This document shows positions 32,897-42,466 of a stretch of 64,000 nt of DNA, piece after piece; position 1 is the stretch's first letter; the number at the start of each line of letters is the position of its first letter. The stretch lies in assembly GCF_003018255.1 (NCBI RefSeq), contig NZ_CP027440.1. One strand, given 5' to 3'. The notes under the pieces are model-generated. The model was not told the origin of the DNA, searched no databases, and saw nothing but the letters and a program-made list of their open reading frames with translations. Both the position numbers and the translations under genes were made by a program. The DNA is from Escherichia coli. Its GTDB lineage: Bacteria > Pseudomonadota > Gammaproteobacteria > Enterobacterales > Enterobacteriaceae.

Positions 32897-34573
32897 ATGG
32901 CACTAACAGATCGCGCTATAGTCCACGCCAAGCCTTGTGGCAAGCCGTATAAGCTCAGTGACTCGCATGGACTTTACCTGCTGGTTAACCCTAACGGTTC
33001 AAAACGCTGGTACATCAAGTACCGCTTTGTAAACAAAGAGAAAAAGCTCGCTTTAGGCCCTTATCCGCTTTTGACGCTTGCACAGGCAAGACGCATGCGT
33101 GAAGAGGCACAATTATTGCTGATTTCCGGCATCGATCCGAGTGCACGCCGAAAAGCAGAACGCCTTGCGATAACGCCGGAACATACGTTTGAGTCTGTGG
33201 CACGTGAATGGGTCACCAGTAACGTGAACTGGTCGGCGGAACATAAGAAGCGGGTGCTGCGTTATTTCGAGCTTTACGTATTCCCCACGAACGGCAGCTG
33301 TGACATCACCAAAATGAAGGTCAAAGATCTGCTGGTGCCCATCAAGGAAGTGGAGAAAGCGGGCAAACTGGATGTTGCTTCCCGGCTTCAGCAGCGCACT
33401 GCCTGCGTGATGCGCTACGCCGTCCAGAACGGCATTATCGATCATAACCCTGCATCAGATTTAACCGGCGCGGTCTCCACGCCCAAAGTACGGCATCACC
33501 CGGCGTTGGATCTGAATCTTATCCCTGATTTCCTGGAAAGAATCGACGATTACAAAGGCCGTCAACTGACTCAACTGGCGGTAAAACTGGCACTGCTGCT
33601 GTTTATCCGCTCCAGCGAACTGCGCTTTGCCCGCTGGGATGAAATTGATCTGCGTAACGCCATGTGGACCATCCCCGCTGAGCGTGAGCCGATCCCCGGC
33701 GTTAAATATTCAGCGCGTGGGGCGAAGATGCACTCCCCACACCTGGTCCCATTGTCACGTCAGGCCATCGAACTGCTGCACGAGGTGCGGCAGCATTGCC
33801 GACCGGGAACTGAACTGGTGTTCCCCGGCGATCACAATTACCGCAAGCCGATGAGTGAAAACACCATCAACAAAGCGCTGCGGGTGATGGGCTACGACAC
33901 CCAGAAAGATGTCTGTGGCCACGGTTTTCGCACTATGGCCTGTAGCGCGCTGGTGGAGTCGGGGCTGTGGTCAAGCGACGCGGTAGAGCGCCAGATGAGC
34001 CATCAGGAGCGCAAGCGCGTGCGTGCGGCGTATATCCACAAGGCGCAGCATCTCGAAGAACGTTGGGAGATGATGCAGTGGTGGGCGGATTATCTGGATG
34101 CAAACCGGTTCAGGCATGTTGTGCCGTATGGCTTCAAAAAGTCGCCGGGAGGCGCACTCGACCATATGAGTTTCCAGGAGCGCAATGACCGGCAGCTAGA
34201 GGAGCTGAAAGCCAGAATACTGGCTGACTCGGAATGGCTGACGGCGTCTGAATTATCCGCAAAAGCGGGCTTTCGTTCCGCCGATCCTGATGCTGGTCCG
34301 AAAGGCTGGAAAGCCGCCGGGAAGATATTCTCGCTGAAGGTCGATGGTGAGGATTTATACCCTGATTATGTTCTGGATGAGAAAATGCGGCCTCTCAAGG
34401 TTGTCCGTTTGATTCTTTCACTGTTTAAGGAGCGTAAAACACCGTGGGGGCTGGCTATCTGGTTTGGCTCGGCTAATCGCAGGTTGAGAGGTGGGAGGCC
34501 GAAAGACCTGCTGATTTCGAAGTCAGAGTTGGTTCTGATGGCGGCGCAGGAGGAGGTGGAGTCGGGGGAGTAG
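32897..34573 (+). CDS. P4-type tyrosine integrase with ~150-aa C-terminal extension
   Basis: 558 aa; N-terminal arm-binding region, catalytic HGFR and Tyr (AAYIH) region at ~aa 350-375; extension ends in a GGRPKDLL-type motif. Confidence 0.85.
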   Translation: MALTDRAIVHAKPCGKPYKLSDSHGLYLLVNPNGSKRWYIKYRFVNKEKKLALGPYPLLTLAQARRMREEAQLLLISGIDPSARRKAERLAITPEHTFESVAREWVTSNVNWSAEHKKRVLRYFELYVFPTNGSCDITKMKVKDLLVPIKEVEKAGKLDVASRLQQRTACVMRYAVQNGIIDHNPASDLTGAVSTPKVRHHPALDLNLIPDFLERIDDYKGRQLTQLAVKLALLLFIRSSELRFARWDEIDLRNAMWTIPAEREPIPGVKYSARGAKMHSPHLVPLSRQAIELLHEVRQHCRPGTELVFPGDHNYRKPMSENTINKALRVMGYDTQKDVCGHGFRTMACSALVESGLWSSDAVERQMSHQERKRVRAAYIHKAQHLEERWEMMQWWADYLDANRFRHVVPYGFKKSPGGALDHMSFQERNDRQLEELKARILADSEWLTASELSAKAGFRSADPDAGPKGWKAAGKIFSLKVDGEDLYPDYVLDEKMRPLKVVRLILSLFKERKTPWGLAIWFGSANRRLRGGRPKDLLISKSELVLMAAQEEVESGE

Positions 34574-39294: not shown

Positions 39295-40884
39295 CTATTC
39301 GCGCAGCAACTTCAGCCACGGATTATTCACCGGCACTTTCTCCCCCAACACCTGCTTCGGATCTTCCATCAGAAACCCTTTCAACTGACTACTTTTCTTT
39401 TGTGGAACCCGAACCTCGCAGATCCAGATAAAACTGTCATCATTACAGCGCAGGGCCAGCCCTGACTCCTGAAACATTCGTTGCGCCAGTTTCCAGCCGT
39501 CGCCGCTATCGCCTGTGGTTTCTGCTGCGTATGTTTTAAAGATCCCCGGCGAAATCAAGAAAAGATGGTTTTCCACCACATGTACCTTGCCGTTCCGGGT
39601 ATTCACCGTGGCTGAAGGACTAGTGTGGTTCTTCAGCCACTGCAGGAAATTGTTATTGTCACCAAGCCTCGGATCGTCTGCTATCTCCGGTAACGGTTGA
39701 GTCGGTGCGCTAAGTTCAGGAGCGGGTTCGGCTTCAATTACCGGCGTTACATCACCATCGAAACAGGCCGGACGTTGATCATCCTGCCCCCAGATTACAG
39801 ACGGCGTCAGGCGCAGTAGCGTCAGCGGTTCAACGGGCGACCAGCCTTTATCCGATCGGATAATGCAGCGCCAAATCGCTTTATCTTCGTTGGCAACAAT
39901 AAGCTGATGCGTCAGCAGTTCGTCAAACAGGCGGTTATTGTTTTCCGGCACGCTGGAAACTCCATGCTGGAGCAGCCAGGCGCGAACCCGGTCGGCGGTG
40001 GTTTTGCTGATAAGCCACAGCGCATCCTCCGTCAGCCAGCCATCGGATCCGCATTCGGGATTATTGAGCCGGTACTCGTTCTGTACCAGCGACCGCAAGG
40101 CTGTAAGAAGTTGCTGGGGGAAGGAAGAGGGCTTTTGCGCCAGCGCGGTTTTGATATCGCCGCCGAGGTATCGGGCGACAGAGGCTTTATCGGCCTGCTG
40201 CACCAGTTCAGCCAGTGCGCCAGACCGTTCGTAGTGTCCGGTGAGCTGGTAAATCAGGGACGCAAAAGCCGCCGGGTATCCGGCCAGCCAGTCCAGTAAT
40301 GGCGAGGGTATCAACTGATTAATCAGCATTGCGGTAGCCGCCGGATGCAGATGATAGTCGCGACCGTGGCTCTGGTACTGCCAGCGATAAGGCTGTGCCA
40401 GATAACCCTGCCACGAATGCCAGCGGGTGCCATCACGTTGATGAATCTCCATATCCACGGCGATTTTTCCCGTATCGTGCAGTAATGCCACGCAGACCAC
40501 TGCGACCGTCCATGCGCTGGCCTGCCGGGCCTGTTCTTCCGCGCCCGCTTCCGGTGGTAGCAGATAACCCTGGCGCAGTCGGATGGCGTTGCAGGCAACC
40601 TCCAGCGAATGATCCAGCAACCCGCCGGGAGTGGAATGGTGATGACTTTGTGAGGCGGGAAGCAGTTGTACCAACGCGGCGAAGCGATGAATCGCCGCGA
40701 GGATCCAGCTATCAAACAGGGTATCCGGCAGCGGGGTCAGTTGCCGTAACTGGTGCAAACAGGACTGGCGTAACGGCGTCGCCAGCAATTGTTCTGCGGA
40801 TTGTGGCGCAAACCAGCCCTCCGGCAGCGTAGCGTCTGGCGTAGGTGGCTGGCTCTGGGATGGTCTTTTTAGCCACTTCAGCAT
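39295..40884 (-). CDS. HD-domain protein, putative MobH-family conjugative relaxase (TraI-like)
   Basis: 529 aa; H...HD metal-binding pattern (LLDHSLEV...ALLHDTGK); neighbours are conjugative-element genes. Confidence 0.55.
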   Translation of the reverse strand: MLKWLKRPSQSQPPTPDATLPEGWFAPQSAEQLLATPLRQSCLHQLRQLTPLPDTLFDSWILAAIHRFAALVQLLPASQSHHHSTPGGLLDHSLEVACNAIRLRQGYLLPPEAGAEEQARQASAWTVAVVCVALLHDTGKIAVDMEIHQRDGTRWHSWQGYLAQPYRWQYQSHGRDYHLHPAATAMLINQLIPSPLLDWLAGYPAAFASLIYQLTGHYERSGALAELVQQADKASVARYLGGDIKTALAQKPSSFPQQLLTALRSLVQNEYRLNNPECGSDGWLTEDALWLISKTTADRVRAWLLQHGVSSVPENNNRLFDELLTHQLIVANEDKAIWRCIIRSDKGWSPVEPLTLLRLTPSVIWGQDDQRPACFDGDVTPVIEAEPAPELSAPTQPLPEIADDPRLGDNNNFLQWLKNHTSPSATVNTRNGKVHVVENHLFLISPGIFKTYAAETTGDSGDGWKLAQRMFQESGLALRCNDDSFIWICEVRVPQKKSSQLKGFLMEDPKQVLGEKVPVNNPWLKLLRE

Positions 40885-41057
40885 ATTTCCCCTTTCCGGG
40901 CAGGCCCCTTTGCCCTTGTCGCCCTTCCTTTGCAGTGTCTCCCTTTGGGCCTTTTACATTTTTATTAGTAAAAACGGTATGCTCTCATGTGTATATCTGG
41001 CGCTGTATTTCTGGCCGACGAGGCAAAGTGACCGACGTTTTGTCGGCCACTTTAATA

Positions 41058-41363
41058 CTACCACCAGGCATAAAACATCAGCCTGTCTCGCTCAAAATCA
41101 AACGTCTCCAGCGTCTCCTTCACCCAGAGAGTGACGGTGCGAACGTCTTTCCAGTAGTGTTCTCCATAATCGGTATAACCATAGAAAAAGCCGTCAATCG
41201 TCGGATAAACCGCGCCGCAGTTATCCGGCGTCAGGCTCTGCAGGTCGCTCAGAAGCGCCTGCAAATTTGCTTTGGTGACTTCTAACAGCACTTGGTTGCG
41301 CACCAGCCCAACGTGTTTATCCACCCATTTAAGCAGCGGATTCACCTTGCGGAAATAACCCAC
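41058..41363 (-). CDS. Hypothetical protein (101 aa)
   Basis: ORF between ArdC-like gene and relaxase-like gene, same strand. Confidence 0.4.
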   Translation of the reverse strand: MGYFRKVNPLLKWVDKHVGLVRNQVLLEVTKANLQALLSDLQSLTPDNCGAVYPTIDGFFYGYTDYGEHYWKDVRTVTLWVKETLETFDFERDRLMFYAWW

Positions 41364-41495
41364 TCTGGCGTACTGGCTTTCATCGGGCGCGTTTTTTTTT
41401 CCGTTCGAAAAAGAAGAGATCGAGTCCCATACATTGATCCTCAGAAAAAGGGGAGCAACTTCCCGGCGGGGAAGGCTCCCCGTGCGGGTGGGCTG

Positions 41496-42401
41496 TCAGG
41501 CGCTAAGCTGACAGGGTTGTGGTACAGCGTTGAGCAGCCATTCACTGGCGTGGCGCGCCATACCGCTGGCGCGGATCACCGCCCGCTTGTCCTGGCGCAG
41601 GATATCCAGCCAGTAGCCGATATAGCTGGCGTGCTGGAGCCTGCCCTGAATGCCGCAATGGGCGCACAGGAAGGCGCTACCCATCTCCTCCACTAACTCT
41701 TCAGCAGCGTAGAGTGCTTCGGTGCGTTCCGCTCCGGCAATACCGGGGCGGTTAAGGCGTGAAGCGTGTCCGGTAGCGTGCGTCAGTTCATGCAGCAGCG
41801 TGGCGTAGTACGCCTCGCTGCTTTCAAACTGTTGCGGGTGCGGCATCATCACCAGATCGGTCGCGGGTTTGTAATACGCTTTCGACTGGCGGCGATGGCG
41901 CAGCGTCACACCGCTATTCATCGTAATGGCTTCAGCCATCTCCACAGGCGTTGCGGGCCGGGTAAACGGCTCGGACAGCGCCTGCGGCAGGCCGTCGCAC
42001 TGCGACAGGTTAAACAGCCAAAATTCACGAATAATCCCGAAATGCCGCACCTTCGGCTCGCCGTCTTTATCCAGCAACGGCTGGCCGAGTGCGTCGGTCT
42101 CTTCCTGCGTGCGCGGCAGATACAACACCGCCAGAGAGGATTTCTCCCCCCGGCGCACCTGCCCGCCGAGCGCGCTGACCTGATGGAACGTCAGCCAGCG
42201 GTCGCTGGCGAAGCTCTGCCTGTCGGCGCTGTTCCACAGCAGCGGTACATTGATGCCGTGATACGGACGACCGGATAACGCATTGATCGGGAACGGCGGC
42301 TCGCCATCGCGCCACGGGCGGAGCCACGGCACATTGCCGTTTTCCAGCTCAGCGATAATCTGGTCGGTGACTTTCTGGTAGATATCGTTGCTTCTGTCCA
42401 T
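41496..42401 (-). CDS. ArdC-like antirestriction protein (ssDNA-binding N-domain plus HExxH metallopeptidase-like domain)
   Basis: LLHELTHATGH zincin motif; start placed at ATG 42401 with GAGGA RBS (ORF track start 42440 lacks RBS). Confidence 0.65.
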   Translation of the reverse strand: MDRSNDIYQKVTDQIIAELENGNVPWLRPWRDGEPPFPINALSGRPYHGINVPLLWNSADRQSFASDRWLTFHQVSALGGQVRRGEKSSLAVLYLPRTQEETDALGQPLLDKDGEPKVRHFGIIREFWLFNLSQCDGLPQALSEPFTRPATPVEMAEAITMNSGVTLRHRRQSKAYYKPATDLVMMPHPQQFESSEAYYATLLHELTHATGHASRLNRPGIAGAERTEALYAAEELVEEMGSAFLCAHCGIQGRLQHASYIGYWLDILRQDKRAVIRASGMARHASEWLLNAVPQPCQLSA

Positions 42402-42466
42402 CGTGTGGTCCTCATGGAAAGAAGCCGGAGCCTCCTCCATCCGGAAGCGACTCCGGCGGGGAGAGG

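What the first reader, a model, noticed from the sequence alone, without database searches (positions are those of the whole stretch)
40990..41060. Inverted repeat upstream of relaxase-like gene, candidate oriT
GGCCGACG...CGTCGGCC (about 41014-41049), with nested gaccgac repeats, lies in the intergenic region 5' of the relaxase-like gene, which is where an oriT nick site would be expected.
Basis: inference. Interest (0 to 1): 0.25.

Follow-up and report, generated by a model that had tools for sequence, protein, structure and literature searches.

The report
Gene-end hairpin beside the likely oriT
The inverted repeat is real and conserved, but it belongs to the end of the gene upstream of the relaxase gene (a terminator-like hairpin), while the likely transfer origin of this E. 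coli conjugative element is a different, family-wide repeat block about 70 bases closer to the relaxase gene.

Summary
The window carries an E. coli integrative conjugative element (ICE) of the ICEclc/PFGI-1 class. Its MobH relaxase gene lies at 39295-40884 (-).

The inverted repeat exists. On the gene strand it reads AAAGTGGCCGAC-aaaac-GTCGGTCACTTT (41053-41025), starting 4 nt after the stop codon of a 123-aa gene. It is not chance: fold z = -5.2, and compensatory changes occur in relatives.

It tracks the 123-aa gene, not the relaxase:
- All ten loci with that gene have the hairpin 4-12 nt after its stop.
- In two loci cargo separates the two genes, and the hairpin stays with the 123-aa gene.
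- Relatives lacking that gene directly upstream of mobH lack the repeat.
- Its imperfections are G·U pairs on the sense strand, followed by 3-4 U.

I read it as a terminator-like 3' hairpin.

What does track mobH is a purine-rich AAAGG array (40885-40955; CCCTTT/GCCTTT on the + strand). It contains a 27-nt core (40891-40917) found in 30 of 30 loci from Enterobacterales, Pasteurellaceae, Pseudomonas, Bordetella and Rhizobium. CCCTTT/GCCTTT is the published signature repeat of the ICEclc oriT.

The feature it chose is the wrong one. Nothing here has been tested experimentally.

The parts
41025..41053 (-). On the - strand: 5' arm AAAGTGGCCGAC 41053-41042, loop AAAAC 41041-37, 3' arm GTCGGTCACTTT 41036-25. 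It begins 4 nt after the stop codon of the 123-aa gene.
   Evidence: for the sequence and fold. It is conserved with 4 compensatory pairs in 9 distinct relatives. It stays with the 123-aa gene in L029 and L036.
41012..41019 (-). Third copy of the arm (GTCGGCCA on the - strand), 5 nt 3' of the hairpin. It could pair alternatively with 41042-41049.
   Evidence: I5, D7. Not conserved in L002/L039 (GTCAACCA) or L003/L040 (GTCGATCA), so probably incidental.
41058..41429 (-). 123-aa hypothetical gene (RefSeq WP_001561264.1) whose 3' end carries the hairpin. It is the last gene of the ardC-orf123 pair.
   Evidence: No Pfam or NCBIfam family.
41496..42440 (-). ArdC-family anti-restriction gene (ArdcN plus zincin metallopeptidase domains), co-directional and upstream of orf123.
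40885..40955 (-). Purine-rich AAAGG/AAGGG repeat array abutting the mobH start codon (CCCTTT x3 and GCCTTT x1 on the + strand). This is the candidate oriT of the element.
   Evidence: 4 SCCTTT in 65 nt and 7 CCTT in 80 nt, which no shuffle reached. Conserved in relatives down to 60% MobH identity while the sequence further upstream is unrelated. The insertion breakpoint in CP062901 is at 40959/40960. ICEclc oriT signature repeats are CCCTTT/GCCTTT (PMC9298801).
40891..40917 (-). Family-wide core AAGGGCAAAGGGGCCTGCCCGGAAAGG (consensus AAGGG(G)nAAnGGSCYTnYCYG(n)AAA(A)GG).
   Evidence: Found in 30 of 30 loci with MobH of at least 38% identity. A profile built without the window and L002/L003 hits the window once, at 40934-40879 (-), E = 2.5e-9.
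39295..40884 (-). mobH relaxase gene (529 aa; TraI_2 + TraI_2_C; HHH 81-83 and HD 136-137 motifs invariant).

Best explanation
The inverted repeat at 41025-41053 is a conserved stem-loop at the 3' end of the ardC-orf123 transcription unit. It forms in the sense (- strand) RNA right after the orf123 stop codon. It most likely acts as a weak or bidirectional intrinsic terminator, or as a 3'-end stabiliser. It is not the relaxase recognition site.

The origin of transfer of this ICE most likely lies next to it, in the 71-bp AAAGG/CCCTTT repeat array (40885-40955) with its 27-nt conserved core. This array sits at the head of the mobH gene or operon throughout the PFGI-1/ICEclc class of MobH relaxases.

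Shown here: the anatomy of both features, their conservation, and their linkage to one gene or the other.

Inferred: termination activity, oriT function of the array, and the position and strand of the nick.
For: Linkage to orf123:
- All 10 loci that have orf123 carry a hairpin 4-12 nt after its stop. The core is GTGRCCG...CGGYCAC followed by UUU(U).
- In E. coli CP062901 (L036) and metagenome locus L029, different RES-toxin cargo insertions separate orf123 from mobH. The hairpin stays at the orf123 stop. In L036 it sits in the 33-nt gap between convergent genes. mobH keeps only the AAAGG block.
- Relatives with other genes directly upstream of mobH (L030, L032, L034, L035) have no such repeat.
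- Relatives with ardC directly upstream carry an unrelated hairpin plus a T-run, i.e. ordinary terminators (L033, L005/6/8/9/11/16).

Signs of an RNA-level structure:
- The RNAalifold 12-bp consensus has 4 pairs with double compensatory changes.
- It has 10 G·U cells, which would be A·C mismatches on the + strand.
- The sense-strand fold is 4-6 kcal/mol better than the antisense fold in 5 of 9 variants and equal in the rest.

The array:
- It is the densest AA[AG]GG cluster of each locus and lies within about 60-200 nt of mobH in most of the loci with MobH >=38% identity.
- In L012/14/17/19 it lies at the head of a parA-like + RHH + mobH operon.
- The core is present in 30 of 30 such loci, including the ICEclc-family loci from Bordetella petrii and P. 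aeruginosa.
- Leave-out profile hit at E = 2.5e-9.
- The oriT of ICEclc/ICEXTD/ICEnahCSV86 is described as carrying signature 6-bp repeats CCCTTT/GCCTTT (PMC9298801).
Against: - The window's hairpin is followed by only three U (UUUGCC). The consensus terminator scan calls nothing there.
- No transcript data are available.
- Travelling with orf123 does not by itself exclude a cis-acting transfer role, because an oriT works wherever it sits.
- The one biochemically studied MobH relaxase (gonococcal TraI) needs an inverted repeat 3' of nic (PMC6736028). A hairpin requirement is therefore plausible for this family.
- I found no consistently covarying hairpin inside the array.
[quoted passage not shown] The location of ICEclc oriT1 relative to traI, and the role of the repeats, rest on a secondary source and on my memory.
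- The array could instead be a promoter or regulator-binding region of the mobH operon.
Confidence: 0.65

Rival explanations
1. The inverted repeat is a working part of the oriT in this sub-lineage. It would be a hairpin bound by MobH or an accessory protein, lying 3' of a nick in or near the CCCTTT block on the + strand, as in the gonococcal MobH system.
For: - It lies in the relaxase-proximal intergenic region.
- GGI TraI requires an inverted repeat 3' of nic, and there structure rather than sequence matters (PMC6736028).
- The stem is conserved by compensation.
- ardC next to it, transcribed towards the gap, fits a leading-region layout (inference).
Against: - It is absent from relatives lacking orf123 directly upstream of mobH, which still keep the array.
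- It is separated from mobH and the array by about 1.6-2 kb of cargo in L036 and L029.
- It lies 70-170 nt from the array, whereas the complete GGI oriT is 50 nt.
- Its G·U positions favour the - strand, i.e. RNA.
- The flanking third copy is not conserved.
Confidence: 0.12
2. The palindrome GTGGCCG-N8/9-CGGYCAC is a double-stranded operator for a dimeric regulator that controls read-through or transcription into mobH.
For: The half-sites GTGRCCG/CGGYCAC are nearly invariant, and their spacing is almost constant at 8-9 bp across the variants.
Against: - The inner stem positions covary rather than being conserved.
- Its position is fixed relative to the orf123 stop codon, not to any promoter.
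- No sigma-70-like promoter was found nearby.
- When cargo is inserted it no longer adjoins mobH.
Confidence: 0.08
3. The repeat is a chance palindrome with no function.
For: About one such inverted repeat per 64 kb is expected by chance. The third copy is not conserved.
Against: Fold z = -5.18. The hairpin is present after the same stop codon in 10 of 10 loci down to 62% MobH identity, with compensatory changes.
Confidence: 0.02

Closest known systems
[quoted passage not shown]
   Same: The relaxase class is the same (TIGR03760/PFGI-1 MobH). The window has the same 6-bp signature repeats CCCTTT/GCCTTT clustered in a short non-coding stretch (PMC9298801; window 40890-40954). ICEclc-family loci from B. 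petrii and P. aeruginosa carry the same array and core directly upstream of traI.
   Different: The E. coli element has never been tested. MobH is only about 43% identical to the Pseudomonas proteins. No significant second copy of the core was found in this ICE, whereas ICEclc has two oriTs (PMC5812530). The primary paper could not be read.
Rho-independent (intrinsic, often bidirectional) transcription terminators of Enterobacteria
   Same: A GC-rich 7-12 bp stem with a 3-8 nt loop sits immediately after a stop codon. It is flanked by an A-tract 5' and a U-run 3'. It is conserved by compensation, and its G·U pairs occur only on the sense strand. In L036 it lies between convergent genes.
   Different: The U-run is short (3-4 U), and the window copy fails a standard consensus scan. 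Termination has not been measured.
oriT of the gonococcal genetic island, processed by the MobH relaxase TraI (PMC6736028)
   Same: The relaxase is of the MobH type, with HD and alternative 3H motifs. That oriT is an intergenic site containing an inverted repeat whose structure is required.
   Different: The GGI oriT is a compact 50-nt unit with the inverted repeat directly 3' of nic. Here the hairpin is 70-170 nt from the conserved array and is dispensable across the family. No sequence similarity was examined, because the GGI sequence was not in the text I read.
oriT of SXT/R391 ICEs and IncA/C plasmids (MobH1 TraI plus MobI)
   Same: MobH-family relaxase; the oriT is an intergenic region containing repeats.
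   Different: Those oriTs lie next to mobI, about 40 kb from traI, and need MobI (PMC5812530; PMC5587640). No mobI-like arrangement is seen here.

Membership tests
Origin of transfer of ICEclc/PFGI-1-class ICEs (claim applied to the inverted repeat 41025-41053) | Stays physically linked to the relaxase gene or operon across the family | tested here: not met
   Absent in L030, L032, L034 and L035 and in all lineages at or below 50% identity. Separated from mobH by cargo in L029 and L036.
Origin of transfer of ICEclc/PFGI-1-class ICEs (claim applied to the inverted repeat 41025-41053) | Carries the family's signature repeats (CCCTTT/GCCTTT) | tested here: not met
   No SCCTTT match inside 40990-41060.
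Origin of transfer of ICEclc/PFGI-1-class ICEs (claim applied to the inverted repeat 41025-41053) | Confers mobilisation in cis and is nicked by the cognate relaxase | not testable with these tools
   Needs mating and nicking assays.
Origin of transfer of ICEclc/PFGI-1-class ICEs (claim applied to the array 40885-40955) | Linked to the relaxase gene or operon across the family | tested here: met
   It is the top AA[AG]GG cluster upstream of mobH or its operon in nearly all loci with MobH >=38% identity. The core is present in 30 of 30. Leave-out profile hit at E = 2.5e-9.
Origin of transfer of ICEclc/PFGI-1-class ICEs (claim applied to the array 40885-40955) | Signature repeats CCCTTT/GCCTTT as reported for the ICEclc oriT | tested here: met
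   CCCTTT at 40890, 40906 and 40941; GCCTTT at 40949. The enrichment was not reached in 200 shuffles. The motif comes from PMC9298801.
Origin of transfer of ICEclc/PFGI-1-class ICEs (claim applied to the array 40885-40955) | Cis-acting mobilisation and site-specific nicking by MobH | not testable with these tools
The primary ICEclc paper was not available.
Intrinsic (Rho-independent) terminator | GC-rich stem-loop directly downstream of the stop codon of a co-directional gene | tested here: met
   It starts 4 nt after the TAG at 41058-41060. The same holds in 10 of 10 loci with orf123.
Intrinsic (Rho-independent) terminator | U-rich tract (at least 5 of 8) immediately 3' of the stem | tested here: inconclusive
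   The window has UUUGCCUC, and the consensus scan finds no terminator. Relatives have UUUU, UUUAUUCA or UGUUGUUU.
Intrinsic (Rho-independent) terminator | Structure selected on the transcribed (sense) strand | tested here: met
   4 compensatory pairs and 10 G·U cells on the sense strand. Sense-strand dG is equal to or better than antisense in all but trivial cases.
Intrinsic (Rho-independent) terminator | Produces RNA 3' ends / stops RNA polymerase | not testable with these tools
   Needs Term-seq, 3'-RACE or a reporter assay.
MobH relaxase, PFGI-1 class (the neighbouring gene) | TraI_2 domain with HHH and HD motifs, TraI_2_C domain, scores above the curated cut-offs | tested here: met
   Pfam at 3.6e-87 and 1.3e-23. 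NF041494 scores 327.7 bits against a cut-off of 200, and TIGR03760 scores 243.9 against 161.4. H81-83 and H136/D137 are invariant.

The most novel reading that the evidence does not exclude
The 27-nt core AAGGG(G)nAAnGGSCYTnYCYG(n)AAA(A)GG, embedded in an AAAGG repeat array, is the universal relaxase recognition and nick region of all PFGI-1/ICEclc/PAPI-1-class MobH ICEs, from Rhizobium to E. coli. The nick site of this very widespread but biochemically uncharacterised ICE class could then be predicted from sequence alone. On this reading the orf123 hairpin is an unrelated terminator that also marks a cargo-insertion hotspot right at the oriT boundary.
Probability: 0.45. Interest if true: 0.4.

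Novelty: new member of a known kind. Interest (0 to 1): 0.2.

Why it matters
The inverted repeat itself is an ordinary gene-end hairpin and matters little.

The useful outcome is the relocation of the oriT candidate to 40885-40955. For enterobacterial ICEs of this class the oriT has generally not been defined. For example, the authors of the ICEKp2 study state that they failed to identify one (PMC6761156).

A short core conserved across orders of Proteobacteria gives a concrete target for three things:
- mobilisation and nicking assays;
- annotation of oriTs in genomic islands;
- detection of relaxase-less islands that might hitch-hike on these ICEs.

It also shows that cargo is inserted exactly at the outer edge of this block.

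Tried and rejected
- Canonical terminator or promoter at the repeat: the consensus scan found none. The terminator reading therefore rests on comparative anatomy only.
- Known RNA family: Rfam found nothing in 40600-41600 at E <= 1.
- Dispersed repeat element: GTCGGYCAC occurs only in the two arms in the whole window.
- Third copy (41012-41019) as a nick-proximal half-site or alternative pairing partner: rejected, because it is not conserved in 92-95% relatives.
- Hairpins at -169 in the 47-49% identity group as homologues of the repeat: rejected. They are unrelated in sequence, follow ardC and have a T-run, so they are terminators.
- A conserved hairpin inside the array (GGGTAA...TTACCC): present in some lineages only and not consistently covarying by eye, so not claimed.
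- A second oriT-like copy in the rest of the ICE (record 454-486 kb). Only a short palindromic AAAGGGCCTTT cluster inside a DUF3158 gene was found; its profile E is about 8, which is not significant. tblastn of that protein against plasmids found nothing.
- Reading the primary ICEclc oriT papers: not held.
- A free-text search for 'CCCTTT' was uninformative.

Full report
**Context**

The window is E. coli chromosome, 100% identical to strain JNE23-011. It carries an integrative conjugative element (ICE) inserted next to a tRNA-Leu gene. The element has the gene set of the ICEclc/PAPI-1/PFGI-1 class: TIGR037xx 'integrating conjugative element' proteins, PilL2, TraD and TraG_N.

It is a genuine MobH relaxase:
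- Pfam TraI_2 (3.6e-87) and TraI_2_C.
- NCBIfam NF041494 and TIGR03760 'PFGI-1 class', both above their cut-offs.
- The HHH (81-83) and HD (136-137) motifs are invariant in an alignment with 20 homologues.

Upstream on the same strand lie a 123-aa hypothetical gene (41058-41429, here 'orf123') and an ArdC anti-restriction gene (41496-42440).

**The observation**

The repeat is there. Read on the gene strand, the sequence after the orf123 stop codon (TAG, 41060-41058) is tatt-AAAGTGGCCGAC-aaaac-GTCGGTCACTTT-gcctc-GTCGGCCA. The main hairpin (41053-41025) has 12-nt arms with 11 Watson-Crick pairs and one G·U pair, and a 5-nt loop.

Three results argue against chance. Hairpins of this quality occur at 9 sites in the window against about 1 in dinucleotide shuffles, so most are functional as a class. 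This stretch folds with z = -5.2. The 9-mer occurs nowhere else in the window.

**What the repeat is linked to**

I collected 26 loci encoding relatives of the relaxase from reference genomes, eight contigs encoding intermediate relatives at 60-73% identity, three further E. coli variants, and two ICEclc-family loci from P. aeruginosa and Bordetella petrii.

The pattern is clear:
- Every locus with orf123 (10 of 10) has a hairpin starting 4-12 nt after its stop codon. The core is GTGRCCG...CGGYCAC followed by UUU or UUUU.
- In E. coli CP062901 (L036) and metagenome locus L029, two differently organised RES-toxin cargo insertions separate orf123 from mobH by about 1.6-2 kb. In both, the hairpin stays at the orf123 stop codon. 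In L036 it sits in the 33-nt gap between convergent genes.
- Relatives in which other genes precede mobH have no such repeat (L030, L032, L034, L035).
- Relatives in which ardC directly precedes mobH have an unrelated hairpin with a long T-run, i.e. an ordinary terminator.

The repeat is therefore a property of the 3' end of orf123, not of the relaxase gene.

**Evidence for an RNA-level structure**

RNAalifold on nine distinct variants gives a 12-bp consensus stem. Four pairs change on both sides while remaining paired. Ten cells are G·U on the sense strand; on the + strand these would be A·C mismatches. Matching this, the sense-strand fold is 4-6 kcal/mol more stable than the antisense fold in five of nine variants and equal in the others.

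These features, together with the position right after a stop codon, the flanking A-tract and U-run, and the convergent-gene context in L036, describe an intrinsic-terminator-type hairpin or a 3'-end stabiliser.

The weak point is the short U-run. The window copy has UUUGCC and fails a standard consensus scan. No RNA family matches.

The third copy at 41012-41019 is not conserved in 92-95% relatives. I treat it as incidental.

**What is linked to the relaxase**

Immediately upstream of the mobH start codon lies a purine-rich array (40955-40885 on the - strand): AAAAGGCCCAAAGGGAGACACTGCAAAGGAAGGGCGACAAGGGCAAAGGGGCCTGCCCGGAAAGGGGAAAT.

On the + strand it contains three CCCTTT and one GCCTTT within 65 nt, and seven CCTT within 80 nt. 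This is the strongest such cluster in 112 kb covering the whole ICE, and 200 shuffles never reached it.

Among relatives with 60-93% MobH identity, alignment is near-perfect from about -75 to -8. The sequence further upstream is unrelated wherever the neighbouring gene differs. The CP062901 insertion breakpoint falls exactly at the outer edge, 40959/40960.

Across almost all loci with at least 38% MobH identity, the densest AA[AG]GG cluster lies 60-200 nt upstream of mobH on the sense strand. In one lineage (L012/14/17/19) it lies 1.2 kb upstream, at the head of a parA-like + ribbon-helix-helix + mobH operon. That placement argues against a mere ribosome-binding or leader feature of mobH.

A 27-nt core is present in 30 of 30 such loci, with consensus AAGGG(G)nAAnGGSCYTnYCYG(n)AAA(A)GG (window 40917-40891). 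The loci include Pasteurellaceae, Rhizobium, P. aeruginosa and B. petrii. A profile built without the window and its two nearest relatives finds the window exactly once, at 40934-40879, E = 2.5e-9.

**Link to known systems**

ICEclc is the experimental model of this class. It has a TraI (MobH) relaxase and two experimentally defined oriTs (PMC5812530; PMC6561031; PMC10018362). A comparative study states that the oriT of ICEclc, ICEXTD and ICEnahCSV86 carries signature 6-bp repeats CCCTTT or GCCTTT (PMC9298801). These are the motifs of the array found here.

[quoted passage not shown] I could not read that paper, so the position of the ICEclc oriTs relative to traI is not verified.

The only biochemically dissected MobH relaxase, gonococcal TraI, uses a compact 50-nt oriT with an inverted repeat directly 3' of nic (PMC6736028). 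This keeps a hairpin requirement plausible in principle. However, the orf123 hairpin is 70-170 nt from the array and is dispensable across the family.

SXT/R391 and IncA/C MobH systems place their oriT next to mobI, far from traI, and are not a model for this locus.

**Verdict**

The oriT is probably in this intergenic region, but the feature singled out is most likely the terminator-like 3' hairpin of the upstream gene.

My confidence is:
- about 0.75 that the repeat is an orf123-linked element and not a conserved oriT component;
- about 0.55-0.6 that it terminates or stabilises transcripts;
- about 0.6 that the array is the oriT;
- 0.65 for the combined statement.

The main rival is that the hairpin is an auxiliary oriT element in this sub-lineage (0.12). 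Nested mobilisation constructs and in vitro nicking would settle the question.

The finding is a new member of known kinds and of low general interest. The conserved core is a modestly useful lead for annotating and testing oriTs in this widespread ICE class.

Noticed in passing
window 40885-40955 (core 40891-40917): An AAAGG/CCCTTT repeat array with a 27-nt core is conserved upstream of the mobH gene or operon in 30 loci from several orders of Proteobacteria. It matches the published ICEclc oriT signature repeats.
   Followed up: yes
L038 17650-17690 (- strand; NZ_AP045067.1 about 471650-471690, outside the window): A palindromic cluster AAAGGGCCTTTTAAAGGCCTTTAAGGGTAAGGG lies inside the 5' end of the DUF3158 gene, upstream of topB. 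It is the second-best CCTT/AAAGG cluster of the ICE. It might be a second oriT-like site, since ICEclc has two. The core profile scores it only at E of about 8, and tblastn of that protein against plasmids found nothing.
   Followed up: partly
window 40959/40960; L036 2460-4047; L029 415-2430: The boundary between the orf123 hairpin and the AAAGG array is a cargo-insertion hotspot. Two differently arranged RES-toxin cassettes occur there, and unrelated genes occupy the same position in L030, L032, L034 and L035.
   Followed up: partly
window 32897-34144 (integrase) and L038 15306-17111 (topB): RefSeq annotates the ICE tyrosine recombinase as a pseudogene lacking its C-terminus, and DNA topoisomerase III as having an internal stop. 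This ICE copy may be unable to excise or transfer.
   Followed up: no
L012 1788-2977; also L014, L017, L019: In the lineage with MobH of about 610 aa (about 50% identity), the array sits 1.2 kb upstream of mobH. A ParA-like ATPase and a 71-aa ribbon-helix-helix-like protein lie between them; these are possible relaxosome accessory genes.
   Followed up: partly
L019 about 1745-1775 and L020 about 2845-2870: In the two Pasteurellaceae loci a GC-rich 9-bp hairpin (CCGCTCCAC-agaa-GTGGAGCGG and CCGTTCCTC-gaa-GAGGAACGG) is inserted immediately next to the conserved core. This resembles the layout of the gonococcal oriT, where an inverted repeat adjoins nic.
   Followed up: no
window 47444-48400: A tyrosine-type DNA invertase gene (47444-48034) precedes a fimbrial operon. 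Two short hairpin-capable inverted repeats (48043-48076 and 48160-48192) lie between them. This may be a fim-switch-like invertible promoter carried as ICE cargo.
   Followed up: no
window about 41385-41400: The poly-T run between ardC and orf123 appears to differ by one base from the otherwise 100% identical record NZ_AP045067.1: a 4001-base query matched 4000 bases, and coordinates shift by 1 across this run.
   Followed up: no
E. coli genome collection: The mobH-orf123 intergenic region occurs in only 43 of 5426 complete E. coli genomes, always on the chromosome. 40 of these are at 90-95% identity to the window.
   Followed up: partly
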